Shown in pieces: positions 12,801-60,978 of a stretch of DNA of 64,000 bases; position 1 is the first letter of the stretch; every line of letters begins with the position of its first letter. A program made the translations under genes and the position numbers. Source of the DNA: Octopus vulgaris (taxonomy: Eukaryota); NCBI GenBank assembly GCA_951406725.2, contig OX597835.1:12896001-12960000 (forward strand), written 5' to 3'. The notes beneath the pieces were generated by a model. That model made no database searches, was not told the origin of the DNA, and saw only the letters and a program-made list of their open reading frames with translations.

Positions 12801-13916
12801 CCCAAAATAAAGAAAAATATGTATTTGCATGGCTATATGATAAGAAGTTTGCTTCTCAATCACATGGTTCCAGGTTCAATCCCACAGCATGGCACCTTGG
12901 GCAAGTGTCTTCTACTATAGCCTTGGGCTGACTAAAGCCTTGTGAGTGGATTTGGTGGATGGAAACTGAAAGAAGCCTATGGTATGAGTGTGTGTGAATG
13001 TGCCTTTGTGTTTGTATTTGTTCCCCCACCACCACTTGACGACCAGTGTTGGTGTGTTTATATCCATGTAACTTAGCAGTTCAGCAAAAGAGACTGATAG
13101 AATAAGTTGCAGGCTTAAAAAAAAAAGAGTGCTGGGGTCGATTTGTTCGACTAAAATTCTACAAGGCAGAATATGTCCGGTCCCCAGCATAACTACAATT
13201 TAGTGACCAAAACAAGTAAAAGATAAAAATTTTTTTAAAATATATATATATACACAAAACAAATTCTTGGCAACAATCCAATAAAAAGGGTAGGATTTGA
13301 TCCCCCGACTCAGATTGTTAATCCAAGAATCATTTGATTTATCCCTTTAGCATTCAGATTAATGCCTTCTCTCTCCCCCAACACTCCCCCACTGGTCTTG
13401 GAGGCCCTGAAAGAGACATGGTTCCAGGTTCAAACCCACTGCATGGCACCTTGGGCAAGTGTCTTCTACTATAGCCTTGGGCTGACCAAAGCCTTGTGAG
13501 TGGATTTGGTGGATGGAAACTGAAAGAAGCCTATGGTATGAGTGTGTGTGAATGTGCCTTTGTGTTTGTATTTGTTCCCCCACCACCACCACTTGACAAC
13601 CAGTGTTGGTGTGTTTACATCCCTGTAACGTGGCAGTTCAGCAAAAGAGACCAATAGAATAAGTTGCAGGCTTAAAAAAAAAAAGTCCTGGGGGTCGATT
13701 TGTTCGACTAAAATTCTACAAAGCAGTATATGTCCGGTCCCCAGCATAGCTACAATTTAATGACCGAAACAAGTAAAAGATAAAAAAATTTTTTTAAATA
13801 TATATATACACAAAACAAATTCTTGGCAACAATCCAATAAAAAGGGTAGGATTTGATCCCCCGACTCAGATTGTTAATCCAAGAATCATTTGATTTATCC
13901 CTTTAGCATTCAGATT
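12723..13916 (+). repeat. Local tandem duplication (~560-640 bp units) containing SINE family A plus unique flank
   Basis: Both units end ...GATTTATCCCTTTAGCATTCAGATTA (13360 and 13917). Confidence 0.9.
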
Positions 13917-14281
13917 ACTGTCAAATGTAATGTTTATTTATTCGCATTGCTTTGGATTATTCATGGATTATCTCATAGCTTTGAGATATCAATTATATTT
14001 TTTCTTTTATTTGTTTCAATCTCTTGAGTGTGGCCATGCTGGGGCACTGCCCTGAAGGAATGGTATTAAGTTTTTTTTTAAAAACTGTTAGATGTAAGGG
14101 TTAGAAAGAGAAGGGGCAAAGGAAGGAAAAAAAGCAGAAAACTAATAAAGGAGATATATAGAGCGATATGTGAATTAAAATAAAAGCTTAAAGGCTTGGA
14201 AATAGATATATCTAGTGGAAGTGAAATGTAAGAAGAAAATCAATGTTCAAATTATACAGAATGGTAGATATAAATATGGTG

Positions 14282-14344
<63 letters not shown>

Positions 14345-14345
<1 letters not shown>

Positions 14346-14620
14346 GATTCAAATGAATATGGTACTTAATTTAGATGCACCAGAATTTTGTATGGTGTTA
14401 TCCATAAAAATCCTTGGGGTGATTATAATCAAAATAAGCAACAAGAATGACTCCGGTAATTTGGTACAATCGTTTCGTACTACATCATTTTATTAAATTT
14501 GTAAGTATTACAACAGATTTAAGATGCTGAGTACTCATCAGCCAATTATAGAGGTTTTCCATTAATACAAAAATTTTCATATCAAGTGGCAACATTATAG
14601 AGAAGGTAGATATACAGACA
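14345..14620 (-). mobile_element. Hammerhead-bearing repeat HH-B, copy 1
   Basis: Reverse complement of 17636-17913; abuts (TA)n. Confidence 0.8.
14461..14545 (-). ncRNA. Type I hammerhead with extended stem II
   Basis: Minus: TTGG-CTGATGA-GTACT...AGTAC-GAAAC-GATT-GTA-CCAA. Confidence 0.8.
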
Positions 14621-14701
14621 AAGATATGGATTTAAATTTTAAGAACATATGAGGTAGTGGAGTCCCTCCACTGACTGACTAAGATTTGGTTGTTCCAGAC
14701 T

Positions 14702-14749
<48 letters not shown>

Positions 14750-14804
14750 GAAATATTAAAATTACGAATTCTCTATAATAGAGATTGCAGCAGCGTTTAC
14801 TGGA

Positions 14805-15097
14805 AATTAATTGTTATCGCCATATTAATATGGCATTCTTATAGAAATAAGAATAATCGCTGCTGCTGGTCAGCTCCATGAGGCCACCGCCATCAAGATA
14901 GCAATACCCCGAAACGCGTCTGTAGCTGTCGGACTGGCAGTGTGAAGCGGCTGACCTCCCTTGTTCGAAGGTTATAATGGATACAGTCGTGTATCAATAG
15001 CTATCTTGATGGCGGTGGCCTCATGGAGCTGACCAGCAGCAGCGATTATTCTTATTTCTATAAGAATGCCATATTAATATGGCGATAACAATTAATT
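14805..15097. repeat. 98-bp inverted repeat with 97-nt spacer, embedded between (TA)n tracts
   Basis: 14805-14902 is the reverse complement of 15000-15097; spacer starts AATACCCCGAAACGCGTCTGTAGCTG. Confidence 0.9.
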
Positions 15098-15127
15098 ATA
15101 TATATACATATATATATACATACATAC

Positions 15128-15169
<42 letters not shown>

Positions 15170-15192
15170 TATATACATACATACATATATAT

Positions 15193-15265
<73 letters not shown>

Positions 15266-15609
15266 GTCTTTCATGTGCTTGGTGACCCCGTCAGTGCTGG
15301 TGCCACTTAAAAGCACCCAGTCCACACTGTAAAGTGGTTGGTGTTTGGAAGGGCATCCAGCCGTAAACATCCTGCCGAAACAGTCACAGAAGTCTGGTGC
15401 AGTCTTCTGCCTGGCTGGAAAGCAGACATTAAACGATGATGATGATGAATATATATTAAATAAATATATTAAGGAGAACAGAGATTTATATATCCAGTTT
15501 TATTCTGCTGTCAATCACGTCTTTCCACTTCTGCACCTACATACGTTTCTGCTGCAATTTTGTGCTCACTGCAAAATTTTGCCTCTTGGTGTACTCTCTA
15601 GTGTTAATG

Positions 15610-16572
15610 CACATACTCACATATACACACACATATTCACATACACACATATACACACACATATTCACATACACACATATACACACACATGCATACACAT
15701 ACTCACAAATACACACACATGCATACACATACTCACAAATACACACACATGCACATACACAAACACATGCATATACATACATGTACACATACACACACAT
15801 ACACACATATACACATGTATACACATACACACATACACACATGTACACATACATACTAAGGAATACACATACACACACACAAATATACATACCCATGTAT
15901 ACACATACATACACACACATGTACACATACACACATATATAATATACACAAACACATGCATTATACACAAACACATGCATACACGCACATGCACACACAC
16001 TCATACACATGCATACACATACACACATGCACACCCATACATATGCACACATATACACATACACACATACAATATACGCAAAACACATACATACACATAC
16101 ATACATGTACACATATATACATATATACATACACACATAATCACATACACACATACAATATACGCAAAATACATACATACACATACATACATGTACACAT
16201 ATATACATATATACATACACTCATAATCACATACACACATACAATATACGCAAAACACATACACATACATACATGTACACATATATACGTATATACATAC
16301 ACACATAATCACATACACACATACAATATACGCAAAACACATACATACACATACATACATGTACACATATATACATATATACATACACACATAATCACAT
16401 ACACACATACAATATATGCAAAACACATACATACATACATGTACACATATATATATACCTATATACATACACACACATACGATATACACAAACATATGCA
16501 TACACATATACACACATACACACACGTACACACACGTACACACACATACAAGTACGTACATATACATACACT
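15610..16572. repeat. Compound (CA/TA) microsatellite with ~70-bp higher-order units
   Basis: CATACAATATACGCAAAA recurs several times at 16066-16420. Confidence 0.9.
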
Positions 16573-17595
16573 AACTGAATGTAATTAATTGGGGCCACTC
16601 AAAGCCGCCACCATAATCTGGACACCAGAATTACACCGACTGCAAATAAGTTAATCTTCCTTCCTCCGACCAAACCCCAAGAGACTAATGGAATCAATCC
16701 GAAAGCTGCAAACAGGTCATCCGTATGAATAATACAGGCTTTAATCAGAGTTCGTTAGCAAAAATATGTTACTGATTAATTTTTACATTCTAGATGACAT
16801 TTCGAATTGATCCATTTAACAATATGATTTTATACTGCTAAATATCTTATTTCGATATTTATTAGAATGGCACTGGTTGGTTGGTTGGTTGGTTGGTTTG
16901 TATGCTGGTCGCTTCCTTGTCTGGTATGTTGATGACCTATCAGTCTCTTTCCCTCTTTCTCTCTCTGTCGTTCTCTGCCTGTCCGTCTCTGCTTGTATCT
17001 CTCTCTCTATCTATCTATCTCTCTCTCTCTCTTGCTGTCTGCTTGGCTGGCAAATGTCAGCACTTGACACAACTGTCTGGCTCTGAAAAAAGAAAACACA
17101 CACACACAATTGCCATTGAATGATATATATAAAGAGAGTATTCTTTAATTCTTTAATTCTTTAATTCTTTGATTCTTTGATTCTTTGACTAGTTTTCACT
17201 CACTGGACTGTGGCCATGTTGGGGCAATGCTATCAGAGCTTTCGGCAAACAAATCAACCTCTGTACTTGTTTTTAAAAACTTTTTAAAGCCTGGTACTTG
17301 TTCTATCAGTCTCGTTTTGCTGAACTGTTAAGTTATAGGATGTAAACAAACTAACACTGGTTCTCAAGCAGTGGTGGGGCAATCAGACACTCAGAACATA
17401 CACACAGAGATATATACATACATAGATATATGAATACATATTGTATATATATATCTGTTTATGCAAATATCTATGTATGTATATATGCATGTAAATATAT
17501 ATCTAAGCATGTATATACCTATGTATATATATATATCTACATATGTATATATCTATGTATGGATATATCTATGTACACATATATATATATGTGCA

Positions 17596-17635
<40 letters not shown>

Positions 17636-17636
<1 letters not shown>

Positions 17637-17927
17637 TGTCTGTATATCTACCTTCTCTATAATGTTGCCACTTGATATGAAAATTTTTGTATTAATGGAA
17701 AACCTCTATAATTGGCTGATGAGTGCTCAGCATTTTAAAACTGTTGTAATACTTACAACATTTAATAAAATGATGTAGTACGAAACGATCGTACCAAATT
17801 ACCGGAGTCATTCTTGTTGCTTATTTTGATTATAATCACTCCACGGATTTTTATGGATAACACCATATAGAATTCTGGTGCATCTAAATTAAGTACCATA
17901 TTCATTTGAATCTAAATTTTTGCTGAA

Positions 17928-17930
<3 letters not shown>
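17636..17930 (+). mobile_element. Hammerhead-bearing repeat HH-B, copy 2
   Basis: Inverted relative to 14345-14620; flanked by (TA)n on both sides. Confidence 0.8.
17712..17797 (+). ncRNA. Type I hammerhead with intact core, extended stem II and palindromic helix III
   Basis: TTGG-CTGATGA-GTGCT..CATTTTA..TGTTGTAA(tac)TTACAACA..TAAAATG..AGTAC-GAAAC-GATC-GTA-CCAA. Confidence 0.85.
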
Positions 17931-17961
<31 letters not shown>

Positions 17962-18914
17962 CATCATCATCACCATCGTTTAACACCTGCTTTCCATGCT
18001 AGCAAGGGTTGGACGATTTGACTGAGGCTGGCGAATTTAAATGTTGAAGTGAATTTAAAGGATTTTGTATAAATATATTTATATTAAAACAATAACATAG
18101 CAAGTCTGGTCATAGAGTGACCAATGGTTTTGCATCAAAGAAAACTGCAGCCTTGTGGTCAGCTAATCAGACTCTATACAGACAAAATTAGCTCTTCACC
18201 TCTTAGAGGTGAAAAGTTGTTATGGTTAATTGATTAAAAGGTCATCAGAAAATAAAAGGGTCCAGTTTTGGTGAGGATGGGTTATCTCCCCTGCACCAGC
18301 TATTTGGGGAATAGGGATCTATCTCTTGGCCTGCTAACATATTGTAAGGGCTCTTACGAGCTTAGTCAGTAAACAAGGAATCCTAATTTTGCAGCAGGTA
18401 AAGCTTGAAATGGATTCATTGTGTGAATATGTATTTATATATGTATTTATATATTTTGATGAGATAAAATATATGTCTGGTCACTCTATAACTGGACATA
18501 TAACTGTCCTTGCATGTAAGTACATTATTTCTCTATCCTTTTGAGCATGTTTCTTTTTTCGGATACATGATTCACTAATGATATTTACACAGACATGTAG
18601 GAAATAAATAGACACCTTTAATTTTAAAAATTTCTGATCTAAGCATCTTAATATGTTTTCAGTAGTGTAGAATTTACAATGTAATTATTCTTTTTCATTC
18701 CAGGTGCCATTATATTAAACATTTGCGAAGAGTAACCATGCCACACACAAAAAATTCAGGAGAACTCATTAGAAAGGGCATCCAGTGGTAGAAACCATGC
18801 CAAATGAGGCTGGGGTCTGGTGCAGCCCTGGTCAAACCATCCAACCCATGCCAGCATGGACAATGGACGATAAATGATGATGAAGATTATATATATATAT
18901 ATATATATAATCTA

Positions 18915-19133
18915 AGGCGACGAGCTGGCAGAGATGTTAGCACGCCGGGCGAAATGCGTAGCCGTATTTTGTCTGCCGCTACGTTGTGAGTTCAAATTCC
19001 GCCGAGGTCGACTTTACCTTTCATCCTTTCGGGGTCGATTAAATAAGTACCAGTTACGCACTGGGGTCGATATAATCGACTTAATTCGTTTGTTTGTCCT
19101 CTCTGTGTTTAGCCACTTGTGGGTAGTAAAGAA

Positions 19134-19135
<2 letters not shown>
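18915..19135 (+). mobile_element. tRNA-derived SINE family C
   Basis: GGCGACGAGCTGGCAGA head, GAGTTCAAATTCC B-box, Meta-like core; other copies at 28577-28797, 30905-31132, 39195-39549, 47318-47546 and 62285-62450. Confidence 0.85.
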
Positions 19136-19164
<29 letters not shown>

Positions 19165-19527
19165 TACACACATGCATACATATACATATAGAAATGTATA
19201 CACACACACATATGTGTGTGTCTATGTGTGTATATATATCCATATATGTGTATATATACTTGTATGTCTGAATGTGTGTCTCTTTATTTTGACAATACAT
19301 GACAGATGTAAGCAAGTTTTCCTAGCATGCAAGTGATGTCAACTTCAATTCTCTTGAGCTAGTGGAGTCACTGAGTATAAAGACAGACTGGCTCCTTGTT
19401 TCTCTGGGATTGGTGAAATTAATACAGAAGCCCCTGATGAAACCCCAATAAGGCTCGAAAATCAATTATCGCTGTACATCAGTTCTTCTATCCACAGACA
19501 AATAGTTACATTTGCCATGCTTATATA

Positions 19528-19845
19528 CATCATCATCATCGTTTAACGTCCGTTTTCCGCGCCAGCACGGGTTGGACGGTTTGACCGGGGTCTGGGAAGC
19601 CAGGGGCTGCCCCAGGCTCCAGTCTGATCTGGCAGAGTTTCTACAGCTAGATGCCCTTCCTAACGCCAACCACTCCGCGAGTGTAGTGGGTGCTTTTTAC
19701 GTGCCACCCGCACAGGTGCCAGGGGGGTCCGGCATCGGCCACGATCAGTTGGAGCTTTTAACGTGCCACCGGCACGGAAGCCAGCCAAGGCGGCACTGGC
19801 AACGGCCACGTTCGGATGGTGCTTTTTATGTGCCACCGGCACAGA
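19528..19845 (-). mobile_element. SINE-like family B copy
   Basis: Same core; further copies at 23528-23817, 24800-25069, 31375-31610, 42745-42935, 46158-46490 and 56998-57330. Confidence 0.8.
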
Positions 19846-19892
19846 AGACATAGGTTACATATATCATTGAATTAAAGAATAGGAATACTAGA

Positions 19893-20680
19893 ATAATAGT
19901 TGTATACTGTCAACTTAACGTGACAGTAGGGGATTACACCACCGCTGTTTAGCCCTAGGAAGCATCAAATGCTCCCTGTTGGCTCCGACACATTTCCTGT
20001 GTCCTTATATATTTACGAAGGGGAGACAAATATCCCCAACAGCTAGGCCTGCATCTAGAGACACATATGTTTCAGGGTCTTTGTCCATCATCGGTCTAGA
20101 GTAGCAAAAGCCAGCTAGCTGCAGATATCTGTCCCGACTTCGTGGCTGTGTGGTAAGTAACTTGCTAACCAACCACATGGTTCTGGGTTCAATCCCACTG
20201 CGTGGCATCTTGGGCAAGTGTCTTCTGCTATAGCCCCGGGCCGACCAATGCCTTGTGAGTGGATTTGGTAGACGGAAACTGGAAGAAGCCTGTCGTATAT
20301 ATGTATATGTATATATGTATGTGTGTGTGTGTGTTTGTGTGTCTGTGTTTGTCCCCCTAGCATTGCTTGACAACCAATGCTTGTGTGTGTTTACGTCCCC
20401 GTCACTTAGCGGTTCGGCAGAAGAGACTGATAGAATAAGTACTGGGCTTACAAAAGAATAAGTCCTGGGGTCGATTTCCCCGACTAAAGGCGGTGCTCCA
20501 GCATGGCCGCAGTCAAATGACTGAAACAAGTAAAAGAGAGAAAAAGAGAAAAAGAGAGTATCTAATTTTCAGTGAAGTATATTCACTGATCACCAAAATC
20601 AGAAATATTAAATTTCTAAATATCTCATAGAGATATGTACGGTGGTGGGGTGATATAATAGTTGTATACTGTCAACTTAA
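19893..20680. mobile_element. Unclassified structured ~350-bp element with a 26-bp terminal direct repeat, interrupted by a SINE
   Basis: ATAATAGTTGTATACTGTCAACTTAA at 19893-19918 and 20655-20680; architecture shared with 54177-54538. Confidence 0.6.
20142..20558 (+). mobile_element. tRNA-derived SINE family A (probably of the octopus OK/OR type)
   Basis: GTGGCTGTGTGGTAAG A-box, GGTTCAATCCC B-box, CTTGGGCAAGTG CORE-like motif, central (GT)n, AAACAAGTAAAAGAG tail. Confidence 0.85.
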
Positions 20681-21162
20681 TTCTGAATACTAGAATAAAA
20701 ATATTAGAATACAGAAGAGTTATACAGGAACATTAGAATATTAGAATAGTTATATAGAATACCAGAATGTAGAAATATCAACTATTCCAGTGAAGTGTGA
20801 AGATGCTAAATTCTCATACACACATATATATATTGTTTAATTATGTATAATCATTATATTTAAGTATGCAAAAGTAATTTTATGATATTGACCTCATATA
20901 AGAAATGCGTTGAACAGGTTGCCAAGAAATATTGATTGAATATTTCGGTTTTGTGTGTTGCGTCTTGGAAATATAGAAAACAATATCATGATGGCGTCAA
21001 GTTTGATGGAGCAGAAATGCCAAGTGTCAGTTGTAGTCAGAGAAAAGAGACTGGCTTACCTTGTGTCCACTGTATACATACATACACACATACATACATA
21101 CGTACATACAAACATACATACGTACATACATGCATGCATACATACATACATACATACATACA

Positions 21163-21194
<32 letters not shown>

Positions 21195-21239
21195 CATACA
21201 TACATATACATAGATACATATATATATATAAATATATGT

Positions 21240-21270
<31 letters not shown>

Positions 21271-21275
21271 CATAG

Positions 21276-21321
<46 letters not shown>

Positions 21322-21340
21322 GTATTTATGTGCTGAGTAT

Positions 21341-21399
21341 ATTCCACTGATGAAGGCAGAGCATTTCTTATGCAGAACCAGAAATTCAGGATCTGGAAT
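21341..21399 (+). ncRNA. Type I hammerhead motif with AUC cleavage triplet
   Basis: ATTCCA-CTGATGA-AGG..GCAT(ttctt)ATGC..CCA-GAAAT-TCAGG-ATC-TGGAAT; 6-bp stem I, imperfect stem II base. Confidence 0.6.
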
Positions 21400-21613
21400 T
21401 ATCCAGTAATTTTTTTTTGCTAGTTTATTTTGTCTCTGTCTTCTCTCTTCGTGCTGTATAAACATTTAATGTGGTTTTAGAGTCAGTTTTGGCTACTATT
21501 TCCAGTGTGATGGTATCTCTTAGATACTTATATACATATATATATATATATATGTACATGTACATGTATATATATATATATATATAGTCAAATCAAACAT
21601 TAAAAATAACATG

Positions 21614-21645
<32 letters not shown>

Positions 21646-22662
21646 CACACATATCTATATATATATATATATATATATAGATATGAAATGATGAGAGAAA
21701 ATGGAATTCCCAAAACTATTCAGAATCACTACAATCGTTTCGGCTCATCATGCGTTGGCACCTTACAGGTGAGATCCTGCACAACTAACTTGTCATGCAT
21801 CAAAGGCGCAGATGCATCTCCTCAGGGGACTTTTCAAAAAGTCATTTTTGTATTTGCCATTTTGCTTATCTCTATTACGATACACTTTGGTGTAGCATTC
21901 CATCTGTTTCCATAAGGAACGGAGACGGAATAAGAGAATCCTTCTCATCTAAGCTATAAGATACGGAATACAAGAATAAAAGAATGAGGAATCAAAGAAT
22001 AGAAAAAAAAGAAGATAAAATAAAATGGAATACACCAATAAAAAGACACAAATAAAAATGTAAAATATATTTGAGATCAGACATTTATGTGGACCTTACA
22101 TTTCATCAAAGCAAATAAGTTAACACACACACACACACACACACACGTGTGTGTGTGTTTGTGTATGTGTGTGTGTTTGTGTGTGTATATATATATATAT
22201 ATATACATATATATATACATATACACACACACACATATGCACATTATAATATATATATACATATACACACACACACATATGCACATTATAATATATATAT
22301 ACATATACACACACACACACACGTATATATGTGTGTGTGTGCTTGTGTGTGTATGTATATATATATAAATATATATACATTTACATATATGTATGTATAC
22401 ACACACATACGTATGCACATATATAATATATATATACATATACACATACACACATGCAGATATATATAAATATATATATATAGATACCAATACATACATT
22501 CTCACATATATATATATATATATATATGCACATATACATAAACATATATATATACACACACACACACACACATACATATATATATACATATATACATCTA
22601 TATATGTATATACATGTGTGTGTGTATATATATATATATGTCTATATATGTATATACATGTG

Positions 22663-22699
<37 letters not shown>

Positions 22700-23322
22700 G
22701 TCTATATATGTATATACATGTGTGTGTGTATATATATATTTATATATATATGTGTGTGCATATGTATCTAAATATACATAAATATATATTGACCAATAAA
22801 TTACATATGCAAATGGATGGACATGTTACAGACACTTCCAGCTTTTGCATTTGGGGTTAATCTAATTATGTGGAGAGAGAGAGAAAGGACATAAAAAAAA
22901 CCGAAGCCAGTGAAAAGCCGCAGAGGTCAGGCTGTGGTCTCATGAACAGGTATAGAGTGACCGGTCATTAGGCATTCAACCAGATTTCACTTACATCTGG
23001 TCATTCCTTTCACCTTTTGATTCTAGATGCTTCTCCATCCGTCTGATGTCCATTCTTTTTTTTTTTTTTTGAATTTGAAGTTAATTTATTGCCACAGCAC
23101 ACGTTCGTCCACCCATATATTCACTGATATATACACACGTCGATACATATACACCCTGCAACGCAGTACCACATATTGAGATGTACATGATGTAGACACA
23201 TATGCTGTTGTATATACTCGTTCATACATCTGTACACTCACATTCCAGCCAGCCAATATATTTTTATCCAATGGCCATATAGTTGGCCATATTCAATGGC
23301 CATATCCAATGGCCATATCCAA

Positions 23323-23490
23323 AGGCGCAGGAGTGGCTGTGTGGTAAGTAGCTTGCTAACCAACCACATGGTTCCGGGTTCAGTCCCACTGCGTGGCATC
23401 TTAAGCAAGTGTCTTCTGCTATATACCCCGGGCCGACCAATGCCTTGTGAGTGGATTTTTGTAGACGGAAACTGAAAGAAGCCTGTCGTA

Positions 23491-23530
<40 letters not shown>

Positions 23531-24055
23531 CGATGCCAGCACCGCCTTGACTGGCTTCTGTGCTGGTAGCACATAAAAAAAGCACCATCCGATCGTGGCC
23601 AATGCCAGACCCCTCTGGCACTTGTGCAGGTGGCACGTAAAAAGCACCCACTACACTCGCGGAGTGGTTGGCGTTAGGAAGGGCATCCAGCTGTAGAAAC
23701 ACTGCCAGATCAGACTGGAGCCTGGGGCAGCCCCTGGCTCCCCAGACCCTGGTCGAACCGTCCAACCCGTGCTAGCGCGGAAAACGGACGTTAAACGATG
23801 ATGATGATGATGATGATATATATATATGTATGTGTGTTTGTGTGTCTGTGTTTGTCCCCCTAGCATTGCTTGACAACTGATGCTGGTGTGTTTACGTCCC
23901 CGTCACTTAGCGGTTCGGCAAAAGAGACCGATAAAATAAGTACTGGGCTTACAAAAGAATAAGTCCCGGGGTCGATTTGCTTGACTAAAGGCGGTGCTCC
24001 AGCATGGCCGCAGTCAAATGACTGAAACAAGTAAAAGAGTAAAAGAGTAAAGAGT
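23323..24055 (+). mobile_element. SINE family A with a family B copy nested in its central (TA)n
   Basis: Head 23323-23490, insert 23528-23817, tail 23830-24055. Confidence 0.85.
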
Positions 24056-24077
24056 TATATATTTATGCATGTTTATT

Positions 24078-24780
24078 TACGAGGTCTGATCCATATGTAT
24101 CCCAGATTGTTGCCATAGTAACGAAGCTAAAGCACGCAAAGTGAAGCCATTTGGTAAAGAATGACCTTAAACTCTGCTGTGCAGGTGCACTAAGTTTTAA
24201 CGTTATACCTCACTTCCACTGTTTACAGCAGTGCTTGGAAGGAAGGTGTGTAGCATGTGATTGTCGCATTGACAATGACAGAGAAAGCTATCATGGCAAT
24301 ACCTGCTCAGAGGCCTACACAAAGATGCAGAAAGTGTATGGAAAGGAGTGTATGAACTGCATACAAGTGCACAAGGGGTTTAGATGTTTCCAAGATGGCT
24401 GAAAAATGTTGATATTGAGGAAAATTCTGGGAGACCCACAACCAGCAGAACTGAGAAAAACATCACGAATGTACATGCAGTTGTGAGGGGAAATCACCGA
24501 ATCACCATCCATGAGTTATCAGAGGATGGTCAGATTAGTTACGGTTCAGTTCAGTCCATTATCACTGAAGATTTGGGTACTTGACGCATGTCTGCCAAGT
24601 TTTTGCCAAAACTGTTTTCAGTTGATCAAAAAGACACTGGGGTTTCAGTTGCACAAGATGTCCTTGATTGTGTTGAGAATGATGAAAACTTGTTGAAAAT
24701 TTTGTGTAGGTGTCTGAGCAGATATCGCCAAGTTTTTGGCAAAATTTGATGCAGATTCTCTGCTCAACTTCCTCTGTCAT
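24078..24780 (+). mobile_element. Decayed mariner transposase N-terminus with an inverted copy of its own start
   Basis: TACGAGGTCTG TIR-like start; SGRPTTSRT..RITIHELSE..ISYGSVQSIITEDLG..SAKFLPK; 24700-24780 (-) reads MTEEVEQRICIKFCQKLG. Confidence 0.8.
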
Positions 24781-25068
24781 ATATATATATATATATAAAT
24801 AGCCGTTGCCAGCCTTACCTGGCCTCTGTGCCAGTGGCACATAAAAAGCACCCTCCGATCATGGCCATTTGCCAGCCTCGTCTGGCACATAAAAAGCACC
24901 CATTACACTCTCAGAGTGGTTGGCGTTAGGAAGGGCATCCAGCCGTAGAAACATTGCCAAATCAGACTGGGCCTGGTGCAGCCTTCTGGCTTCCCAGACC
25001 CCAGTTGAAGCGTCCAACCCATGCTAGCATGGAAAGCGGATGCTAAACGATGATTATGATGATGATGA

Positions 25069-25121
<53 letters not shown>

Positions 25122-25123
25122 TT

Positions 25124-25228
25124 TCGTGACCGACCAGACCATCAGATGTTGCGACACATCGCTGGTCACAATGCGTTCGCATTGTTTTAGCCTTCGAATG
25201 ACGCCACCCCGCTGGCTAAGCGAGCAGG

Positions 25229-25232
<4 letters not shown>
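25124..25232 (-). mobile_element. ~110-bp structured repeat inserted in (TA)n
   Basis: Reverse complement of 36875-36992. Confidence 0.65.
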
Positions 25233-25274
<42 letters not shown>

Positions 25275-25728
25275 TACAGGGTAGAAAAATTATAGAAATT
25301 TTTATACCAGTGGCTTAGCATGTATTAAGTAGTCAATAGGCAACATATTTTTCATATAAAATTAGTGTACTTTTAAACACAAAAGAGGTGACTATTTTTG
25401 CACATCTCCACACACAGCACAAATGGCTCAAGCAGCTTTGGTAACTTTGGAACTGTGATTAAAAGTGAAGAGGAGCAGGTGTTGAAAATGTTCAGTTTTT
25501 TTTTTTTGTTTTCTATTTGTTATTCCATTGTCATATATGTCTGCAAAGAGATAAGATTTATTTGAATTTCAAAAGTAATCGACAAAAGCTGTAGAGGAAG
25601 ACACCATAAAGCTGTATGAAAGAAAAAAATAGTCTTTTGTGTTATCTGTCAATCAAATATGTACACACACACATACATACAGACATATGCACACACACTC
25701 ACCTAAATACACTCTCCCACACACACAT

Positions 25729-25763
<35 letters not shown>

Positions 25764-26174
25764 AAAACATGCACACACACACTCACCCACACACATACAT
25801 ACAAATACATGCACACACACTCACACCACACACACATGCACACACACACACACACACACATACAAATACATGCACACACTCACCCACACACACACACATA
25901 CATACAAATACATGCACATACACTCACCCACACACACATGCACACACACACACACATACATACATATACATGCACACACACTCACCCAAACACACATGCA
26001 CACATGCACACACACACACACACATACATACAAATACATGCACACACACTCACCCACACACACATGCACACACACACACACATACATACAAATACATGCA
26101 CACACACTCACCTACACACACATGCACACACACACACATGCACACACACACATGAGCACACATACTCTTGAGCA

Positions 26175-27150
26175 TAGCTGTGTGGTCAGAAGTTGGCTTC
26201 CAACCACAAGGTTCCAGGTTCAATCCCACTGCAAGGTACTTTCGTCAGGTGTCTTCTACTACAGCCCCAGGCAGACCAAAGACTTGTGAAAGGGTTTGGT
26301 GGGCAGAAACTTAAAGAAGCCCATTGTGTGTGTATGTATGTGTGTGTGTGTGTGCGTGTGTGTTTGTGATGTAGTGGGGGGTCTTTGCATCTATGTTTGT
26401 CCCCCATCACCGCTTGACAACTGGTGTTGTACCCAAAACTTAGTGGTTCAGTAAAAGACACTGATAGAATAAGTAACAGGTTTAAATAAAGCAAGTTCTG
26501 GGGTCCTTTCATTCGGCTAAAAATAATTCTTCAAGGCAGCGTCACAGAATGGCAGCATCACAGAAGTGAGTAAAACAAGTAAAACATAAAAGAGATATAT
26601 AATGGAGTGGATGTGTGGTAAGTAGCTTGCTTACCAACCACATGGTTCCGGGTTCAGTCCCACTGTGTGGCGCCTTGGGCAAATGTCTTCTACTATAGCC
26701 TCAGGCTGACCAAAGCCTTGTGAGTGGATTTGGCAGACGGAAACTGAAAGAAGCCCGTCGTATATATGTAAGTGTGTGTGTGTGTATGTTTGTGTATGTG
26801 TGTTTGTCCCCCCCCCCACCATTGCTTGACAACCGATGCTGGTGTGTTTACGTCTCTGTAACTTAGCAGTCCGGCAAAAGAATCCGATAGGATAAGTACT
26901 AGGCTTACAAAGAATAAGTCCTGGGGTCGGTTTGTCCCCACCCTCATCGCCACTTGACAACTGGTATTGGTGCGTTTACATCCCCATAACTTAGCGGTTC
27001 AGCAAAAAAGAGACTGACAGAATAAGTACTGGGTGTAAAAAAATCAAAATAAAACGAGTCCTTGGGTCCATTTGTCGAACTAAAACTCTTGAAGGTGGTG
27101 CTCCAGCATGGCCGCAGTCAAATGACTGAAACAAGTAAAAGAATAAAAGA
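26175..27150 (+). mobile_element. Cluster of SINE family A copies
   Basis: Heads at ~26175 and ~26612; 3' half duplicated at 26930-27150. Confidence 0.8.
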
Positions 27151-27206
<56 letters not shown>

Positions 27207-28883
27207 ATGTGTGAGTGTTTCTCTGGTGCGTTCAGTGTAACGTAAGTGATACCACTATCTCTTATAATTCTTCTGAAGAATAAATATTGATTGGAATGGC
27301 TGTTATTGTCCAGAGTTATTAAACGGTAAAGGTTTTGTCATTCTTTGATGTTTCTCGATGCCATTTAATCACAGAAGGGAACCAAGATGATAGGAAGCAT
27401 TTAAAGAAAACGTGTTGCAACTTTTCTCCGTTTAAAGAATTCAGGCAATTCATAATTGCATCATCTTGGAGAAGGATTCCCACCCAACGCTCTTACTAAC
27501 AACGACTTGATCTGGACAATCTCCTGGGTGACACACTCTTTGAGTAATATTTCCACATTGAAACACATTCTGAAAACCATACTTATAAACACATACATGG
27601 TGTGGGCTTGGCCGTGTGGTTAAGCATGGCATTTTGCAACCACATGGTTCTCTGTTCAGTTCCACTGTGTGGCACCTTGGGCAAATATTTTCTACAATAG
27701 CTCAGGCTGGCCGAGACCTTGTGAGTGAAACTGTGAGGAAGTCCATTGTGCATATATATATATTTACTGTACTCTTTAACCACATCTTTTTCCCATTCTT
27801 TCTTCCTATTTCAAAGGGCCAGCCTTGTAACACTCTGCGTCACGCTGAATCTCCTTGAGAACTATGTTAAGGGTACACGTGTCTGTGGATTGCTCAGCTG
27901 TTTGCATGTTAATAAATGAGCTGTGACGTTACTGGTACCAAGCTGTATTAGTCTTTGCCTTTCCCTTGGATAACATCAGTGGTGTGGAGAGGAGGGGAGG
28001 CTGGTATGCATGGCCGACTGCTGGTCTTCCATAAACAATCTTGCCCTCAGAGGGTAACTTTCTAGGTGCAATCCCATGGACATTCGTGACCAAAGGGGAT
28101 CACAACACAATATATATATATATAAATTTGAATTAAGCAGAAAATGGCCACAGTATGGTGCCACAGTATGGTGCCACAGTACTCCCTTGCCTCCTCTATG
28201 CCACAGAAATCATGGCCCTCTACTGCTGGTACATGAAGGCCCTGACACTGGGTGGGACATGTTTGTAGGATGGAGAGTGACAGGCTCCCAAAAGCAGTGT
28301 TCTTTGTTGATCTGTGTCAGAGTAGGTGGAGCTGTTGTGGCCAGAGGTTGCAATACAGCAATGTGCTGAAGTGACATATGAAGAACCCCCTGGCACCTCC
28401 CCAGAGATTTTATGACAGTAAACTGCATGTGTGTGTGTGTGGAATCTGTGTAGTTTTTTTATGCAGTATTGTGCTGGGACAGATATGACCACTGACTAAA
28501 CTTGGAATACTTTGCTGGGATTAAAAATGTGGTATGTAAAAGATAAATTATTTTGATGCAAAATTTCTGTCGACATTTCTTTATTGCCCACATGGGGCTA
28601 AACATAGAGGGGACAAGCATGAACAGACAAAGGGATTAAGTCAATTACTTCAACCCCAGTGCTTAACTGGTACTCAATTTATCGACCCCAAAAGGAGGAA
28701 AGGCAAAGTCGACCTCGGCAGAATTTGAACTCAGAATATAACTGCAGACGAAATACTGCTAAGCATTTCGACCGGCGTGCTAACATTTCTGCCAGTTCAG
28801 TGTCTTACATTTCTGCCGACAATTATGTTATTTTTATCAGACATGTAGCAACACATGCTCACAAACGTGCACACACACACACA

Positions 28884-28915
<32 letters not shown>

Positions 28916-30189
28916 TACACACACACACACACCCACACACACACACATGCACACACACATGCACAAGTTACTTGCAGATCAACATAGTTCACCATGATTG
29001 TGACTGAATGAAATTTCAGAATGAATTATTCGCTATTTCTGTATAAACGCATGAAAATAATTTGTGCCTTGGCACCAAAATTGAAAAAGAAGTGGAGAGT
29101 TGAGATTTAGATAAAAGAAAAAAAATCCTCAAGAATCTTCACACATGCAAAATTGTATCTCAACTCCAATTAAAATGATGACCAAACTTTTTATTTTGCA
29201 ATCCATGATAAACGGATTTTAAAAAACCTGATCTCAGATAAAATAAATAAGGATTTTTAGGATTTTTACTAAAGTTTAAATGAATTTTTTTTTCAGAAAC
29301 CATACAAAATAAATAAAACCCCTTAAAATTCGAGGATTTTAACTGGTGATTACATCCTATGACAGAGTTGTAAAATGAAAATTATGCAAGGAAAAAATAT
29401 TTTCCAGATATCTCACTGTTATTTTTAGCATATCAAGTTTTGACAATTTTTTTTATCTGGTTTCGGAAGAAATCTATTCCTGCACAAACTAACATATCCA
29501 ATGTGTAATACATCAGGAAAAGATGGAAAGTAGCAACATAGGATGTTTTTTAAGAAAATTTGAAATTTAAAAAGAAAAAATCTTTTTCTAGATTTGTAAT
29601 CTCTGTATTTTTTCCATGTGGATTAAAAAAAAAATCTAAAAAAAAAGTGAAAAATTAAAAAATTGGAGCGGGAAGGGGGAAAATTAGAATTTTGAATATG
29701 TGTTTTTTTTTTGGCAAAATCGTAATCTCTGATATCAAAAATATAAGAATCCCAAAAAATTCTTGAAAAAAATGGGTGTCAGGTGCAAACACCCGACCTC
29801 CATCCAGAGTACACAGAGCCATGTAGTGGGATAGTATGAAGGTTGACAGAGACAGTAGTGTTTATAGGGGGCGGGGTGGGGTATACAGAAGCCATAGGCC
29901 AAAGATATATGGGAAACTGATTTCCTAAAATGTCCTGGTGGCTCCCTGGGAGTTGTAGCTAATTTTTGCTACGTAGTGCCATAACTAACACTGGGTACCC
30001 TTGATGGAGGTCTGGTGACCTAATTAGCAGTGGAGAAGGTTGTACTGACAGTGTAATTGCTAGAATAAGAATAGGATGAAGGAAAGTTCAGAGAGCTTTC
30101 ACCTTAGTTGGCAACCACAGTTTCTCACTCTGAATGAAGAAGGGAAGATTGTGTGATGCATGTGTACAAACTGTACTGCTGCAGGGGAG

Positions 30190-30735
30190 TTTAACTCTTG
30201 CTGAAATACAAGCTTTCAACGAGGTTAAACAGAAATTCTCTCATGTCTCCAGGTTAGCTCACCCCATTCCTGATGCCGAAATTTCTCTTGTAGTTGATGC
30301 ATCTGAAATTGGCATTGGTGCAGTCATTCAACAACTTCATCATGGTGAATGGCAACCTCTGGCGTTTTTCACTTAGCAGTTAAAACCAGCTGAAACTAAA
30401 TATAGTGCATTCAGTCATGAACTGTTAGCTATTTACCTCTCACAATATTTACAGATCATAAGCCGTTATTTTTCACTTTACACTGCAAGCCAGATAAATT
30501 TTCTCCGTGAGACATTCGACATTAGTATTACATTTCACATTTCGCAAGTGATATATGATATATTCCAGGTTCTGAGAACATTGTTGCAGATTCTTTATCC
30601 CGTTTACCTGTAAATGCATTATTTTCAACTGCAGAAATTAAGTTGGACGAAATGTCGGACGATCAACCATCCATTAATTTGAATAATACACACACAGTCA
30701 TATCTATACTTGATACTGAACATATATTCTCTCTA
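30190..30735 (+). mobile_element. Ty3/Gypsy LTR retrotransposon pol remnant (RNase H region), pseudogenised
   Basis: LAHPIPDAEISLVVDASEIGIGAVIQQ..WQPLAFFT*QLKPAETKYSAFSHELLAIY..TDHKPL..YIPGSENIVADSLSR. Confidence 0.9.
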
Positions 30736-31755
30736 CAGTCGTAAGATGTTGGCCCTGAATGTGGAGAACATGCAAAGGCTGGAGAGGAAAGAAGCTGGTA
30801 TGGTCCACTGGATGTGCAATGCCAGTATGCATGTGTGACAGAGCATTGGTGTATTGAGACAGAAGCTGGGCATAAGAGGAATATCATGCGGTGTGCAAGA
30901 GGGAAGGCGGCGAGCTGGCAGAAACGTTAGAATGCCGGGCAAAATGCTTAGAAGTATTTCGTCTGCCGTTACATTCTGAGTTCAAATTCCACCAAGGTCG
31001 ACTTTGCCTTTCATCTTTTTGGGATCGATAAATTAAGCACCAGTTGCGCACTGGGGTCAATGTAATTGGCTTAATCCCTTTGTCCTTGTTTGTTCCCTCT
31101 GTGTTTAGCCCCTTGTGGGCAATAAAGAAATAAGAGGGAAGATTGAGCTGGTATGGGTATGTGATGCGGATGGACAAGGACAGTTACATTAAGAGGTGCT
31201 GACCCCTTAAAATAGGGCAAAGTTGTGGAAGAGAGCCCTGCAAAAAACAGGAAGAAATGTTGAAAGCCAATTTCAAAATGCTGAGCCTTATGAAGGAGAA
31301 GACCGAGGATCGAGACGAGACGCATTGCTCTACGCAAGGGGACCCACCACCACAAACAAAATTGAGATCCTAAAACCAAGGTGCCACATAAAAGCCATTG
31401 GTGATGTTGCCGTGTAAAACGCACCAAGTACACTCTGTAAAGTGCTTGGCATTAGGAAGGGTATCCAGCTGTAGAAACCATGCCAGAACAGACTGTGGAC
31501 CCTGGTGTGGCCTCTGACCTTGCCAATTCTTGTTAAGCTGTCCAACCCATACCAGCATGAAAACGGATTTTAAATGTTGATGATGATGATGATGATGATG
31601 ATGACGATGATGGTACACATATATGCACAGCACTGTCAGTTGACACATTCATTACTTAAACATTTATGTAGTAAGAAGGGATCTGTGACTACACATGGCC
31701 CCTCAGCAAAACACTGATGGAAGAGAGGAACTGGGAAAGCATTGACGGAGTCACA

Positions 31756-32157
31756 TCTTTATATATAAAAGTGAGCTTGTGTGCTGTCTGTCTCCTACGA
31801 TTTAGATTCCTAACTACTCCCACATTTTGCGGTGCAGTTTAACCAAAACCGGGTATCTTATAGTCGTGATTCATATCGAACCCTTCTGGGTATTAGCGCG
31901 CATCTACGATGAGTCTACGATTTAAAAAAAATTTACCATCATTTTTTTCCATTTTAATGCATTTTTTTCGCTATTATATAAGGGAAGTAACTCTCTAAAA
32001 ATGTCTACGATGAGTCAACGATTTAAAAAAAAATTTACTATCATTTTTTTTCCATTTTTAATGCATTTTTTTTGCTATTTTTTGGCTATAACTCTCTAAA
32101 AATTCTTATATAGTTATTTGCCTTACAAACCCGAGCAACGCCAGGCGATACTGCTAG
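31756..32157 (+). mobile_element. Non-autonomous Helitron
   Basis: A|TCTTTATATATAAAA 5' end, subterminal CCCGAGCAACGCCAGG hairpin, CTAG|T 3' end; internal ~95-bp tandem duplication. Confidence 0.85.
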
Positions 32158-32602
32158 TTTTGCAATAAAGCAAGAGCTTAGCTGTAGTTTCAGAGAGCAT
32201 GCTTCTGGCCAAAATCAACAACGTTAAGGAAGTTTACGGCACTGTATATACAAATGGATGCTTATCTTTAGAAACAACATGAATCTGTCATAGTACTTTA
32301 TACTATCACATAAACTGAATAAGAGGACTTGTAATATTAATAATATTAATACTATCAGGACTATCACACATCCACACACACATATATATATAAGAAAAAG
32401 GAGAGAAATGGAGAAATTGGATTTGTTTCAATAAATTGATATCTGCATATCAATTTCTCTATTTTCTTTTTTATTATACGTAAATGGTAATATAGGATAT
32501 CCATCAATGTGAAGCTAACATCTTTTAGTATTTCACCGATATGCTGGATAAAACTAGGCAACCAGGATGCTGACATCTCTTTAAGAGTTATTTATAGCTT
32601 CA

Positions 32603-32649
<47 letters not shown>

Positions 32650-32680
32650 TATGTATATATATATATATATAATATATATA

Positions 32681-33183
32681 TAGTTAATCCAAACATGAAA
32701 ACACAAATAGAAAAGACAACAACGCAAGGACGTGGAACAAGTATAGTGTTATTGGACGCTCAGGAAAGAAGGAAAGAAGGAGTGCTTAACGTTTCGAGTG
32801 GAGCTCTTCGTCAGAAACATAGAAAAAGGAAAGATCCAAGGAAGGGAAGACGGAGGAAAAAAAATCGCGAACGATACACACGCGGTCACATATTGAATAT
32901 ATATATATGTATATGTATGTATACTATATAGCATCAGTGGTGCTTTTCCCTGGCACAAACCCAAACAGCATATATATATAGTTAATCCAAACAAGAAAGC
33001 ACAAAAAACACAACAACGCGAGGACATGGAACAAATATAGTATTATTGGACACTCAGGAAAGAAGGAAAGAAGGAGGGTTTAACATTTCAAGCAGAGCTC
33101 TTCGTCGGAAACATAGGAGAGGGAAAGATCCAGAGAAGGGAAGACAGAGGAAAAAAATTGCCAATGGTACACATGCAGTCACA
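32681..33183 (-). mobile_element. Direct tandem pair of HH-A repeats
   Basis: Units 32681-32890 and 32980-33183; hammerhead motifs at 32784-32818 (CTGACGA) and 33078-33112 (CCGACGA). Confidence 0.8.
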
Positions 33184-33205
33184 TTTTGAATATATATATA
33201 TATAT

Positions 33206-33659
33206 AAGTTCAGCAAAATTTAGATTCAGATGAATATGGTACTTAAGTTAAAGGCACCAGAATTTGGTATGGTATTATCCATATAAAGCAAAGGGGGTGA
33301 TTATAATCAAAATAAGCAACAAGGATATCCAAGATAGTGTAGTACAATTTTTTCATGCCACTTCATTTTATTAAACACTGTAAGTATTACATCAGTTTTA
33401 AAATGTCAAGCAATCTTCAGCCACATATAGAATTGTTTAATTAAATGGACAATGTACATTTTTATACTTATACTTTTTATACTTTTATACTTATTATACT
33501 TAACTAAGTATAAACATATACATTGTCCATTTAATTAAAAAATTCTATATGTGGCTGAAGATTGCTCAATATTTTAAAATTGATGTAATACTTAAAGTGT
33601 TTAATAAAATGAAGTAGCATGAAACGATTGTACTACACTACCTTGGATATCCTTGTTGC

Positions 33660-33666
<7 letters not shown>
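33206..33666. mobile_element. Inverted pair of an HH-B subfamily
   Basis: Arms 33206-33458 (-) and 33519-33666 (+); hammerheads at 33339-33424 (-, decayed) and 33551-33636 (+, GTGG-CTGAAGA..GAAAC-GATT-GTA-CTAC). Confidence 0.75.

Positions 33667-33706
<40 letters not shown>

Positions 33707-60449: not shown

Positions 60450-60509
<60 letters not shown>

Positions 60510-60922: not shown

Positions 60923-60978
<56 letters not shown>

What the first reader, a model, noticed from the sequence alone, without database searches (positions are those of the whole stretch)
14345..33666. HH-B: hammerhead family with a ~60-nt extended stem II and covarying stem I
Seen: four copies (14461-, 17712+, 33339-, 33551+). 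Stem II is a long interrupted hairpin (GTRCT/AGTAC, CATTTTA/TAAAATG, TGTTGTAA/TTACAACA). Stem I changes from TTGG/CCAA to GTGG/CTAC between subfamilies while staying paired, and N7 varies T/A as the core allows. Helix III is the perfect palindrome ACGATCGT at 17785. Both subfamilies occur as inverted pairs. Inference: selection on the fold; the long stem II is atypical of minimal PLE hammerheads.
Basis: partly seen in the sequence, partly recalled or inferred. Interest (0 to 1): 0.75.

Follow-up and report, generated by a model that had tools for sequence, protein, structure and literature searches.

The report
Long-armed hammerhead in Penelope-like repeat
A dispersed animal repeat, likely the truncated end of a Penelope-like retrotransposon, carries a hammerhead ribozyme motif with an unusually long 59-base arm that is predicted to cut only as a pair of RNAs; it is real and the standard RNA family models miss it, but it is a variant of a known kind.

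Summary
The four copies are real (cores at 17716+, 14541-, 33555+, 33420-). Each is a type I hammerhead motif with a 58-59 nt stem II, inside a 160-360 nt repeat that ends in (TA)n. Three DNA runs of three organisms lay 1784-2749 contigs on it. The core is spared: 0 of 22 subfamily differences fall in 14 core columns (p=0.03). Stem I shows one compensatory and one wobble change, and the pair closing stem II switches from G-C to the tolerated U-U. The palindrome ACGATCGT is the family majority (83-85%). Copy 17716 is predicted to misfold as a monomer and to form the double hammerhead as a dimer. Two corrections: only 33339/33551 is an inverted pair, because 14461 and 17712 are separate insertions; and the long arm has no compensatory change, so selection on it is not shown. 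The (TA)n targets, variable 5' ends, inversions and a Hydra-clade-like core point to truncated Penelope-like (PLE) ends, but the RT/endonuclease gene was not seen. Spike-moss PLE hammerheads have 48-54 nt stem II regions, so there is precedent. No cleavage data exist. Verdict: new variant of a known kind.

The parts
17636..17930 (+). Copy B1: 295-nt element between (CA)n/(TA)n and (TA)n; full 3' end ...GCTGAACT
   Evidence: 96.8% to B2 over 277 nt
17709..17801 (+). B1 type I hammerhead motif: stem I 17709-15/17794-801, core CUGAUGA 17716-22, stem II 17723-81, GAAA 17782-85, palindromic helix III 17785-92, predicted cut 3' of A17793
   Evidence: cleavage predicted, not shown
17752..17781 (+). 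3' strand of the 59-nt stem II hairpin (5' strand 17723-17749, UAC loop 17750-52)
   Evidence: -15.9 kcal/mol, z -3.75, 0 of 500 shuffles as low
14346..14703 (-). Copy B2: 358-nt element flanked by (TA)n on both sides; lacks the last ~15 nt; has an 82-nt longer 5' part
   Evidence: reference
14457..14548 (-). B2 hammerhead motif: C3 14541, stem II 14534-14477 (58 nt), helix III ACGATTGT 14473-14466, predicted cut after A14465
14639..14704 (-). Open frame of 21 codons ending in TAA 97 nt upstream of C3; candidate last codons of the parent element's gene
   Evidence: 4 of 7 listed variants synonymous, 5 of 7 at third positions (p about 0.08); no Pfam match; inferred
14349..14405 (-). 18-codon ATG frame starting 60 nt after the predicted cut (B1: ATG at 17853, with a TAG at codon 6; open in B4)
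   Evidence: 3 of 3 listed variants synonymous (p 0.013, post hoc); role unexplained
33207..33500 (-). Copy B4 (second subfamily), full 3' end into (TA)n; C3 33420; stem II 33413-33355 closed by U-U; helix III AAAATTGT broken at 15.2, likely inactive
33505..33666 (+). Copy B3 (second subfamily), head-to-head inverted partner of B4, ending ~100 nt short in (TA)n; C3 33555; stem II 33562-33620; predicted cut after A33632
   Evidence: (93% to B4 over 148 nt)
14282..14345 (.). (TA)n tract at the 3' end of B2; likewise 14704-14746 (5' of B2), 17930-17958 (B1), 33192-33206 (B4), 33667-33706 (B3)

Best explanation
The four motifs are type I hammerhead cores with a 58-59 nt stem II, likely carried in 5'-truncated 3' ends (pseudo-LTR pieces) of an endonuclease-bearing Penelope-like retrotransposon that inserts into (TA)n, and predicted to cut after GUA only when two RNAs pair through the palindromic helix III. 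Shown: sequence, core, helices, (TA)n junctions, two subfamilies (79% identical), one head-to-head pair, and many contigs in three organisms. Predicted by folding: in the monomer, the core pairs with the palindrome and is off; in the dimer, an 8-bp intermolecular helix III and swapped stems I free both cores. Inferred from known PLE biology: the master element is transcribed as a tandem, its two hammerheads cut the precursor slowly or with help from the element's protein, and reverse transcription starting ~135 nt past the cut site and stopping early leaves these short solo or inverted copies. The solo and inverted copies in this window are likely passive. The long arm is likely a tolerated hairpin added to loop II in the master lineage, stable enough to keep the 10.1-11.1 junction, with no shown function of its own.
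For: Core spared by divergence: 0 of 22 differences in 14 columns, p=0.032. None of the 40 displayed read variants hits an invariant core base; they fall at N7, 10.1/11.1, 10.3/11.3, 11.2 and inside helix III (19 rows not shown). Stem I: U-A to G-C and G-C to G-U. U10.1-U11.1 is a known tolerated natural variant (PMC3088659 passage) and occurs in 11 of 14 Penelope-n_HM families of the Hydra clade (File S2 of PMC8557442). The palindrome is the majority allele: 85, 83 and 85% of depth at 14468 in X1, X5, X14. B1 free dimer MFE is the double hammerhead, -55.0 vs 2 x -24.1 kcal/mol; in the monomer the core-palindrome misfold has P 0.85 and the own helix III P 0.001. All four copies end in (TA)n; 26 of 27 Hydra-clade families list (TA)n as target. 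Core-to-end distance is 214 nt, against about 100-210 nt in those families. Inverted 5'-truncated partners are a PLE hallmark (PMC8557442): B4/B3 is one, and 10 of 14 listed joints switch strand. Depth on B2 falls about 7-fold from 14598-609 to 14658-669 in X1 (240,081 to 32,645), in line with 5' truncation. The upstream frame ending at 14639 has a synonymous-leaning variant pattern.
Against: No RT or GIY-YIG sequence was found: 150 of 243 longer non-repetitive frames of the window were scanned with no such Pfam hit, and the 21-aa frame has none. No whole genome was held, so no full-length element was seen. No short motif of the element or its peptide matched a Naiad, Chlamys or Hydra consensus in the supplement of PMC8557442, apart from one unrelated 11-mer. 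The covariation rests on two subfamilies, i.e. single events; 33 of 500 shuffles reach the score. Nearest-neighbour folding ignores tertiary contacts and concentration. Depth near the edge of a reference falls for technical reasons and the second subfamily does not align there. Two of the strand-switch joints (14474/14552, 14476/14550) lie symmetrically about the hairpin and may be artefacts of it. No RNA end data exist.
Confidence: 0.72

Rival explanations
1. The repeat is a self-standing non-autonomous non-LTR retrozyme: tandem masters of ~300-360 nt are cut to monomers, circularised and reinserted by a PLE protein, and these are dispersed monomers.
For: Size, low GC and a type I hammerhead with short helix III fit metazoan retrozymes of 150-450 bp (PMC7229834 passages). 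Monomer share can reach 1 and retrozymes are proposed PLE derivatives (bioRxiv 10.64898/2026.07.22.740005, parts 1-2).
Against: No head-to-tail copy in the window. Only 1 of 14 listed joints goes back (121 nt, one contig, X14), and none joins the 3' end to a fixed start (contigs show presence, not absence). 5' ends differ between copies. Two X3 contigs run on beyond B2's 5' end by 38 and about 187 letters (tables 7-8). A coding-like frame ends 97 nt before the core.
Confidence: 0.13
2. Same PLE origin, but the long stem II is a selected domain (a docking arm for stem I, a binding site for the element's RT/endonuclease, or a clamp that allows activity without loop-loop contacts), so cutting or mobility depends on it.
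For: Length 58-59 nt in all four copies across 21% divergence; 5 of 44 extension columns differ between subfamilies vs 22 of 108 overall; UGUAA-UAC-UUACA and the A/U-rich middle helix are kept; no listed joint removes only the arm in three DNA runs. The lizard PAc hammerhead needs the element's protein to cut (PMC11167929 passage).
Against: No change on both sides in columns 30-71; 4 of the 5 subfamily differences there (43, 57, 58, 59) weaken or break pairs. Stability after divergence is mostly within random expectation. B3's arm does not beat shuffles.
Confidence: 0.2
3. The motif is a hammerhead relic that no longer cuts in any form; the core is kept by recent descent or for another use, such as overlap with a promoter or start region.
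For: Metazoan PLE hammerheads cut weakly even as dimers, and no reads ended at the PAc cut site (PMC4209133; PMC11167929). B4 has a broken helix III. The core contains an ATG.
Against: Pair-keeping changes in stem I and at 10.3-11.3, the G-C to U-U switch and a kept palindrome are what selection on the ribozyme fold would give.
Confidence: 0.1
4. A DNA-level foldback or MITE-like repeat whose hairpin falls between core-like words by chance.
For: The window has several palindromic repeats, and the core words alone are not enriched over shuffles (13 matches vs mean 6.2, 8 of 100 shuffles as high).
Against: All three helices plus an NUH site; 0 strict hits in 30 shuffles; 0 of 48 collection hits with both stems; no terminal inverted repeats on the unit.
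Confidence: 0.02

Closest known systems
Hammerheads of Hydra-clade Penelope-like elements (Craig et al. 2021, PMC8557442, Files S1 and S2)
   Same: Type I; stem I of 4-5 bp often ending in UGG; core CUGAUGAG..CGAA or CUGAAGAU..UGAA (U-U at 10.1-11.1); short, near-palindromic helix III; about 100-210 nt before the 3' end; (TA)n target.
   Different: Stem II regions there are at most about 26 nt, against 58-59 here. Hydra-1_oBim has a different hammerhead. The 21-aa frame here does not resemble the Hydra endonuclease end (by eye), so the clade is not assigned.
PLE-X1_sMoe and PLE-X1_sTam hammerheads of Selaginella (same File S2, marked as deviating)
   Same: Type I PLE hammerheads with about 54 and 48 nt between the two core halves.
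   Different: Plant, endonuclease-less, 28S rDNA-targeted elements; unrelated sequence; no 8-nt palindrome.
Minimal hammerheads (min-HHR) of metazoan PLEs (Cervera and de la Pena 2014, PMC4209133)
   Same: PLE pseudo-LTR setting, mostly single copies, some on opposite strands 100-700 bp apart, palindromic 15.2-16.2/loop 3, dimer requirement.
   Different: min-HHRs have almost no helix III, a 7-8 bp helix II and an unpaired base after A9. HH-B has a 2-bp helix III with a tetraloop, no extra base and a hairpin of about 22 bp. The window's other family (43596+) is the min-HHR type.
Non-LTR retrozymes, e.g. axolotl HHR_Amex2 (Cervera and de la Pena 2020, PMC7229834)
   Same: Type I hammerhead, 2-bp helix III with tetraloop, U-U at the base of helix II, unit of about 300 nt, better cutting as dimers.
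   Different: Retrozymes are head-to-tail tandems giving circular RNAs; HH-B copies seen here are solo or inverted with variable 5' ends, and have no loop 1-loop 2 geometry.
Naiad PLEs with 'HHR_half_core' (PMC8557442)
   Same: (TA)n target; core halves reported 35-50 nt apart; Octopus families exist.
   Different: The 3' ends of Naiad_Obim, Naiad_Ovul and Naiad_Omin show no likeness to HH-B by eye and no motif matched.

Membership tests
Type I hammerhead ribozyme | Core CUGANGA ... GAAA ... UH | tested here: met
   All four copies, H=A; 15.2-16.2 pair broken in B4
Type I hammerhead ribozyme | Helices I (open), II and III around the core | tested here: met
   Stem I 4-5 bp plus 2-3 after a bulge; stem II 4-5 proximal bp; helix III 2 bp within one RNA or 8 bp between two
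Type I hammerhead ribozyme | Match to an Rfam hammerhead model | tested here: not met
   No hammerhead family at E up to 10 on 17660-17925; likely because of the 59-nt arm, so this lowers the database label, not the fold
Type I hammerhead ribozyme | Loop 1-loop 2 tertiary contact of fast hammerheads | tested here: inconclusive
   Loop II lies about 22 bp from the core, too far for the usual contact; internal loops at 17730/17773-76 could dock, not testable by folding
Type I hammerhead ribozyme | Self-cleavage after the NUH triplet | not testable with these tools
   All runs listed were contigs; no raw RNA reads
EN+ Penelope-like element | ORF with PLE reverse transcriptase and GIY-YIG endonuclease | tested here: inconclusive
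   Not in the window; only a 21-codon frame with synonymous-leaning variants; no genome held
EN+ Penelope-like element | Hammerhead in the terminal pseudo-LTR | tested here: met
   Core 214 nt before a shared 3' end in B1 and B4
EN+ Penelope-like element | 5' truncation and adjacent inverted copies | tested here: met
   Different 5' ends; B4/B3 head-to-head; 10 of 14 listed joints switch strand
EN+ Penelope-like element | Partial tandem (direct pLTR) arrangement | tested here: inconclusive
   None in the window; contigs too short (no listed piece spans the stretch)
EN+ Penelope-like element | Optional 30-40 nt tail (two 3' ends) | tested here: inconclusive
   Three 3' ends seen: full (B1, B4), about -15 nt (B2), about -100 nt (B3); may be losses at (TA)n
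Hydra clade of PLEs | (TA)n target and canonical-core hammerhead | tested here: met
Hydra clade of PLEs | RWK, DKT, CxCx5C protein motifs and RT phylogeny | not testable with these tools
   No protein available
Naiad PLEs (Octopus families) | Sequence likeness to published 3' ends | tested here: not met
   (3 cephalopod consensus ends read by eye; 6 motifs searched in the whole supplement)
PLE min-HHR | No helix III beyond the core; unpaired base between 9 and 10.1; 7-8 bp helix II | tested here: not met
   6-nt insert, direct 10.1-11.1 apposition, 59-nt stem II
Non-LTR retrozyme | Head-to-tail tandem units each with a hammerhead | tested here: not met
   None in the window; no listed end-to-start joint in 4 runs; absence elsewhere in the genome not shown
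Non-LTR retrozyme | Abundant linear and circular monomer RNA | not testable with these tools
   One run guessed to be RNA had 15 contigs and no listed joint

The most novel reading that the evidence does not exclude
The 59-nt stem II is a selected, protein-binding or allosteric domain of a retrotransposon hammerhead: with the core-palindrome misfold it makes a switch that is off in single RNAs and on in tandem transcripts bound by the element's protein, and the cut leaves a 5' end 60 nt before a conserved ATG. Long-armed hammerheads of this kind are invisible to Rfam and to descriptors with 7-17 nt spacers, so some PLE families counted as hammerhead-less may carry them.
Probability: 0.15. Interest if true: 0.62.

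Novelty: new variant of a known kind. Interest (0 to 1): 0.38.

Why it matters
The role of hammerheads in Penelope-like elements is still open (PMC8557442, PMC11167929). This family gives a clean test case: a predicted monomer-off, dimer-on switch, two natural subfamilies with G-C and U-U junctions, and a long arm that can be trimmed. It is not a new ribozyme class, and the copies in this window are most likely inert insertions.

Tried and rejected
Own genome: none held, so no genome-wide alignment or R-scape. Rfam: the whole-window scan showed only microsatellite-driven matches in the 150 of 405 rows displayed; the narrow scan gave 2 chance hits. The repeat finder was swamped by microsatellites; a masked self-BLAST replaced it. 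Naiad origin: rejected for the three cephalopod consensus ends read. Relatives in collections: 0 hits (viral, family pattern), 24 (metagenomes), 5 (prokaryote genomes), 19 (viral, generic pattern); none of the 48 had both stems, and the model found 0 matches in L001-L029. PLE protein remnants: none in 150 of 243 frames. A 47-codon antisense frame over the 3' half was dropped because a common variant at 14407 makes a stop in it and B4 shifts it. The idea that B2's three stem II changes are a compensating re-pairing was dropped: its stability is average for random change (P 0.68). The 60709+ hammerhead-like element does not align with HH-B in its flanks (14 bits). The 3' 138 nt has no fold beyond shuffles (z -0.9 and -0.3). 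Expression: no RNA holder on record listed; run X3 is only guessed to be RNA, so it was not used for or against. Earlier scan notes: three look-ups, nothing. Lunse et al. 2016 is not held and is known here only through a review passage; its variants and supplements could hold a long-stem precedent.
Full report
Observation. Each reads stem I, CUGA(U/A)GA, 58-59 nt, GAAA, 6 nt, UA, stem I. I call them B1 (C3 at 17716+), B2 (14541-), B3 (33555+) and B4 (33420-). The core words alone are not rare in this window (13 matches, shuffle mean 6.2). The full anatomy is: a strict descriptor gave 0 hits in 30 shuffles, and none of 48 core-pattern hits from metagenomes, viruses and prokaryote genomes had both stem I and stem II at 4 bp or more. 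A covariance model of the four copies finds no fifth copy in the window. Rfam has no hammerhead match on 17660-17925 at E up to 10.

The element. The motif sits in a repeat of 160-360 nt. B1 and B4 share the 3' end ...GCTGAACT followed by (TA)n, 214 nt after C3. B2 lacks about the last 15 nt and B3 about the last 100 nt, and both also end in (TA)n. 5' ends differ. B1 and B2 are 96.8% identical, B3 and B4 93%, and the two groups about 79%. B4/B3 is an adjacent head-to-head pair; a read-through RNA would fold into a long duplex (153-159 pairs over 358 nt), which would bury both hammerheads. B1 and B2 are not such a pair: 3 kb of other repeats lie between them, and 7 of their 9 differences are common variants of the family, so they come from different masters. 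The window is non-coding, rich in microsatellites and short interspersed repeats. The host is an animal by these signs; 'cephalopod-like' is my recollection of such repeat landscapes, used as a search lead and not tested by any search.

The family outside the window. Twenty of 24 listed runs hold half or more of B1's words, under four coded organism labels. Laid on B2 at 80% likeness, three DNA-type runs of organisms A, B and C gave 2749, 2484 and 1784 contigs. This suggests a large family but is not a copy number. At 14468 the base that completes the palindrome ACGATCGT holds 85, 83 and 85% of depth, so B1 has the majority form. Of the 40 variant rows shown (19 more were not shown), 13 sites lie in 14461-14545 and none at an invariant core base. 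They include N7, both 10.1 and 11.1, 11.2 (U-A to U-G) and both 10.3 and 11.3. The two helix III variants are CpG transitions, so decay could explain them. One listed variant (14545, 14-57% of depth) would mispair position 1.4 of stem I unless its partner also changes; linkage is not available. Ten of 14 listed joints switch strand, one goes back, and none removes only the long arm.

What is and is not under selection. Between subfamilies, 22 of 108 columns differ and none of 14 core columns does (p=0.032). Stem I has one change on both sides (U-A to G-C), one wobble change and a shifted bulge; 5 random changes leave it as stable in 2.5-7% of trials, but keep as many pairs in 13-28%. The long arm is a real hairpin in B1 (-15.9 kcal/mol, z -3.75), weaker in B2 and B4 (z -2.1) and not above shuffles in B3. 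It has no two-sided change, the whole-structure covariation score is reached by 33 of 500 shuffles, and 3 of 4 simulations show no excess stability. Its sequence is somewhat more conserved than average (5 of 44 columns). With two subfamilies the power is low, so selection on the arm is neither shown nor excluded.

Predicted mechanism. In a single B1 RNA the core bases UGAU pair with the palindrome (P 0.85) and the own helix III almost never forms (P 0.001). The unconstrained minimum-energy structure of two B1 RNAs is the double hammerhead, with an 8-bp intermolecular helix III, swapped stems I, intact stems II and free cores (-55.0 vs -48.2 kcal/mol for two monomers). This is the dimer rule known for metazoan type I hammerheads (PMC4209133, parts 1-2 of 4; PMC6765202 passages). 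It is a prediction. Such PLE hammerheads cut slowly in vitro, and the lizard PAc one needs the element's protein (PMC11167929 passages).

Origin. (TA)n junctions, variable 5' ends, inverted partners and a hammerhead near the 3' end are the described anatomy of endonuclease-bearing PLEs (PMC8557442 passages and section 11). The core style matches the Hydra-clade list in that paper's File S2: CUGA(U/A)GAU..UGAA in 11 of 14 Penelope-n_HM families, CUGAUGAG..CGAA in others, and (TA)n targets in 26 of 27 families. Other clades' hammerheads were not compared base by base, so this does not assign the clade. B2's extra 5' part is an open frame of 21 codons that stops 97 nt before C3, with 4 of 7 listed variants synonymous. 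An 18-codon ATG frame 60 nt after the cut has 3 of 3 synonymous (pooled 7 of 10, p=0.003; frames chosen after seeing the data, rows incomplete). The first may be the end of the parent gene; the second is unexplained because it stops before the element's end. No RT or endonuclease was seen, and no genome was held. The PLE origin is therefore inferred.

Comparison and novelty. It works like the dimer-dependent type I hammerheads of PLEs and non-LTR retrozymes (PMC7229834 passages; bioRxiv 10.64898/2026.07.22.740005, parts 1-2 of 5, supplements closed). It is not a min-HHR, not a tandem retrozyme as far as seen, and not one of the three Octopus Naiad consensus ends read. Long stem II regions have precedent: about 54 and 48 nt in two Selaginella PLE-X1 hammerheads marked as deviating; 'longer helix II' in fungal virus hammerheads means 6-8 bp in the passages read (PMC13725137). 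Eight literature searches showed no description of this family, and an Octopus vulgaris repeat paper does not use the words hammerhead or ribozyme (PMC13282606, term search). Repbase, Dfam and Lunse et al. 2016 could not be seen, so the repeat itself may already be catalogued.

Verdict. A real hammerhead family, new variant of a known kind. Interest 0.38: of use to specialists as a testable switch and as a case that standard models miss, but not a new class, and the distinctive arm has no shown function.

Noticed in passing
window 43596+, 32814-, 33108-, and inverted pair 8716-9214: A second, minimal-type hammerhead family (12-nt stem II, ACGT palindrome) in (TA)n-flanked repeats of about 200 nt; two copies lie directly beside B4.
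   Followed up: partly
window 60508-60925 (+), core at 60709: (TA)n-flanked 420-nt element with a hammerhead-like motif: 7-bp stem I, 28-nt stem II, palindrome ATCATGAT, core about 216 nt from the 3' end as in HH-B; flanks not alignable to HH-B; fold not above shuffles.
   Followed up: partly
window 11640-11675 (+): Another minimal hammerhead-like motif with 5-bp stem I and 21-nt stem II; with the others, at least four hammerhead-type families in 64 kb.
   Followed up: no
window 14806-15096, 7095-7369, 8289-8709, 42410-42602: Long palindromic repeats, possibly further inverted insertions; 14806-15096 lies between B2 and B1, next to (TA)n.
   Followed up: no
window 14405-14349 (-), 17853+, 33282- region: 18-codon ATG frame 60 nt after the predicted cut, with only synonymous listed variants and no listed indels; stops 20 nt before the element end.
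   Followed up: partly
table 7, X3 at 14449 and X5 at 14445: Loose ends suggest further subfamilies with helix III ACAATTGT (also a perfect palindrome) and different stem I 3' strands.
   Followed up: no
window 30134-30373 (+) and 24145-24399 (+): RT-RNase H remnant of an LTR-type element (E 1.7e-13) and a weak Mos1 transposase HTH match (E 6e-4).
   Followed up: no
window 12862-13364 and 13416-13920: Local 505-nt direct duplication, 94.7% identical, just upstream of B2.
   Followed up: no
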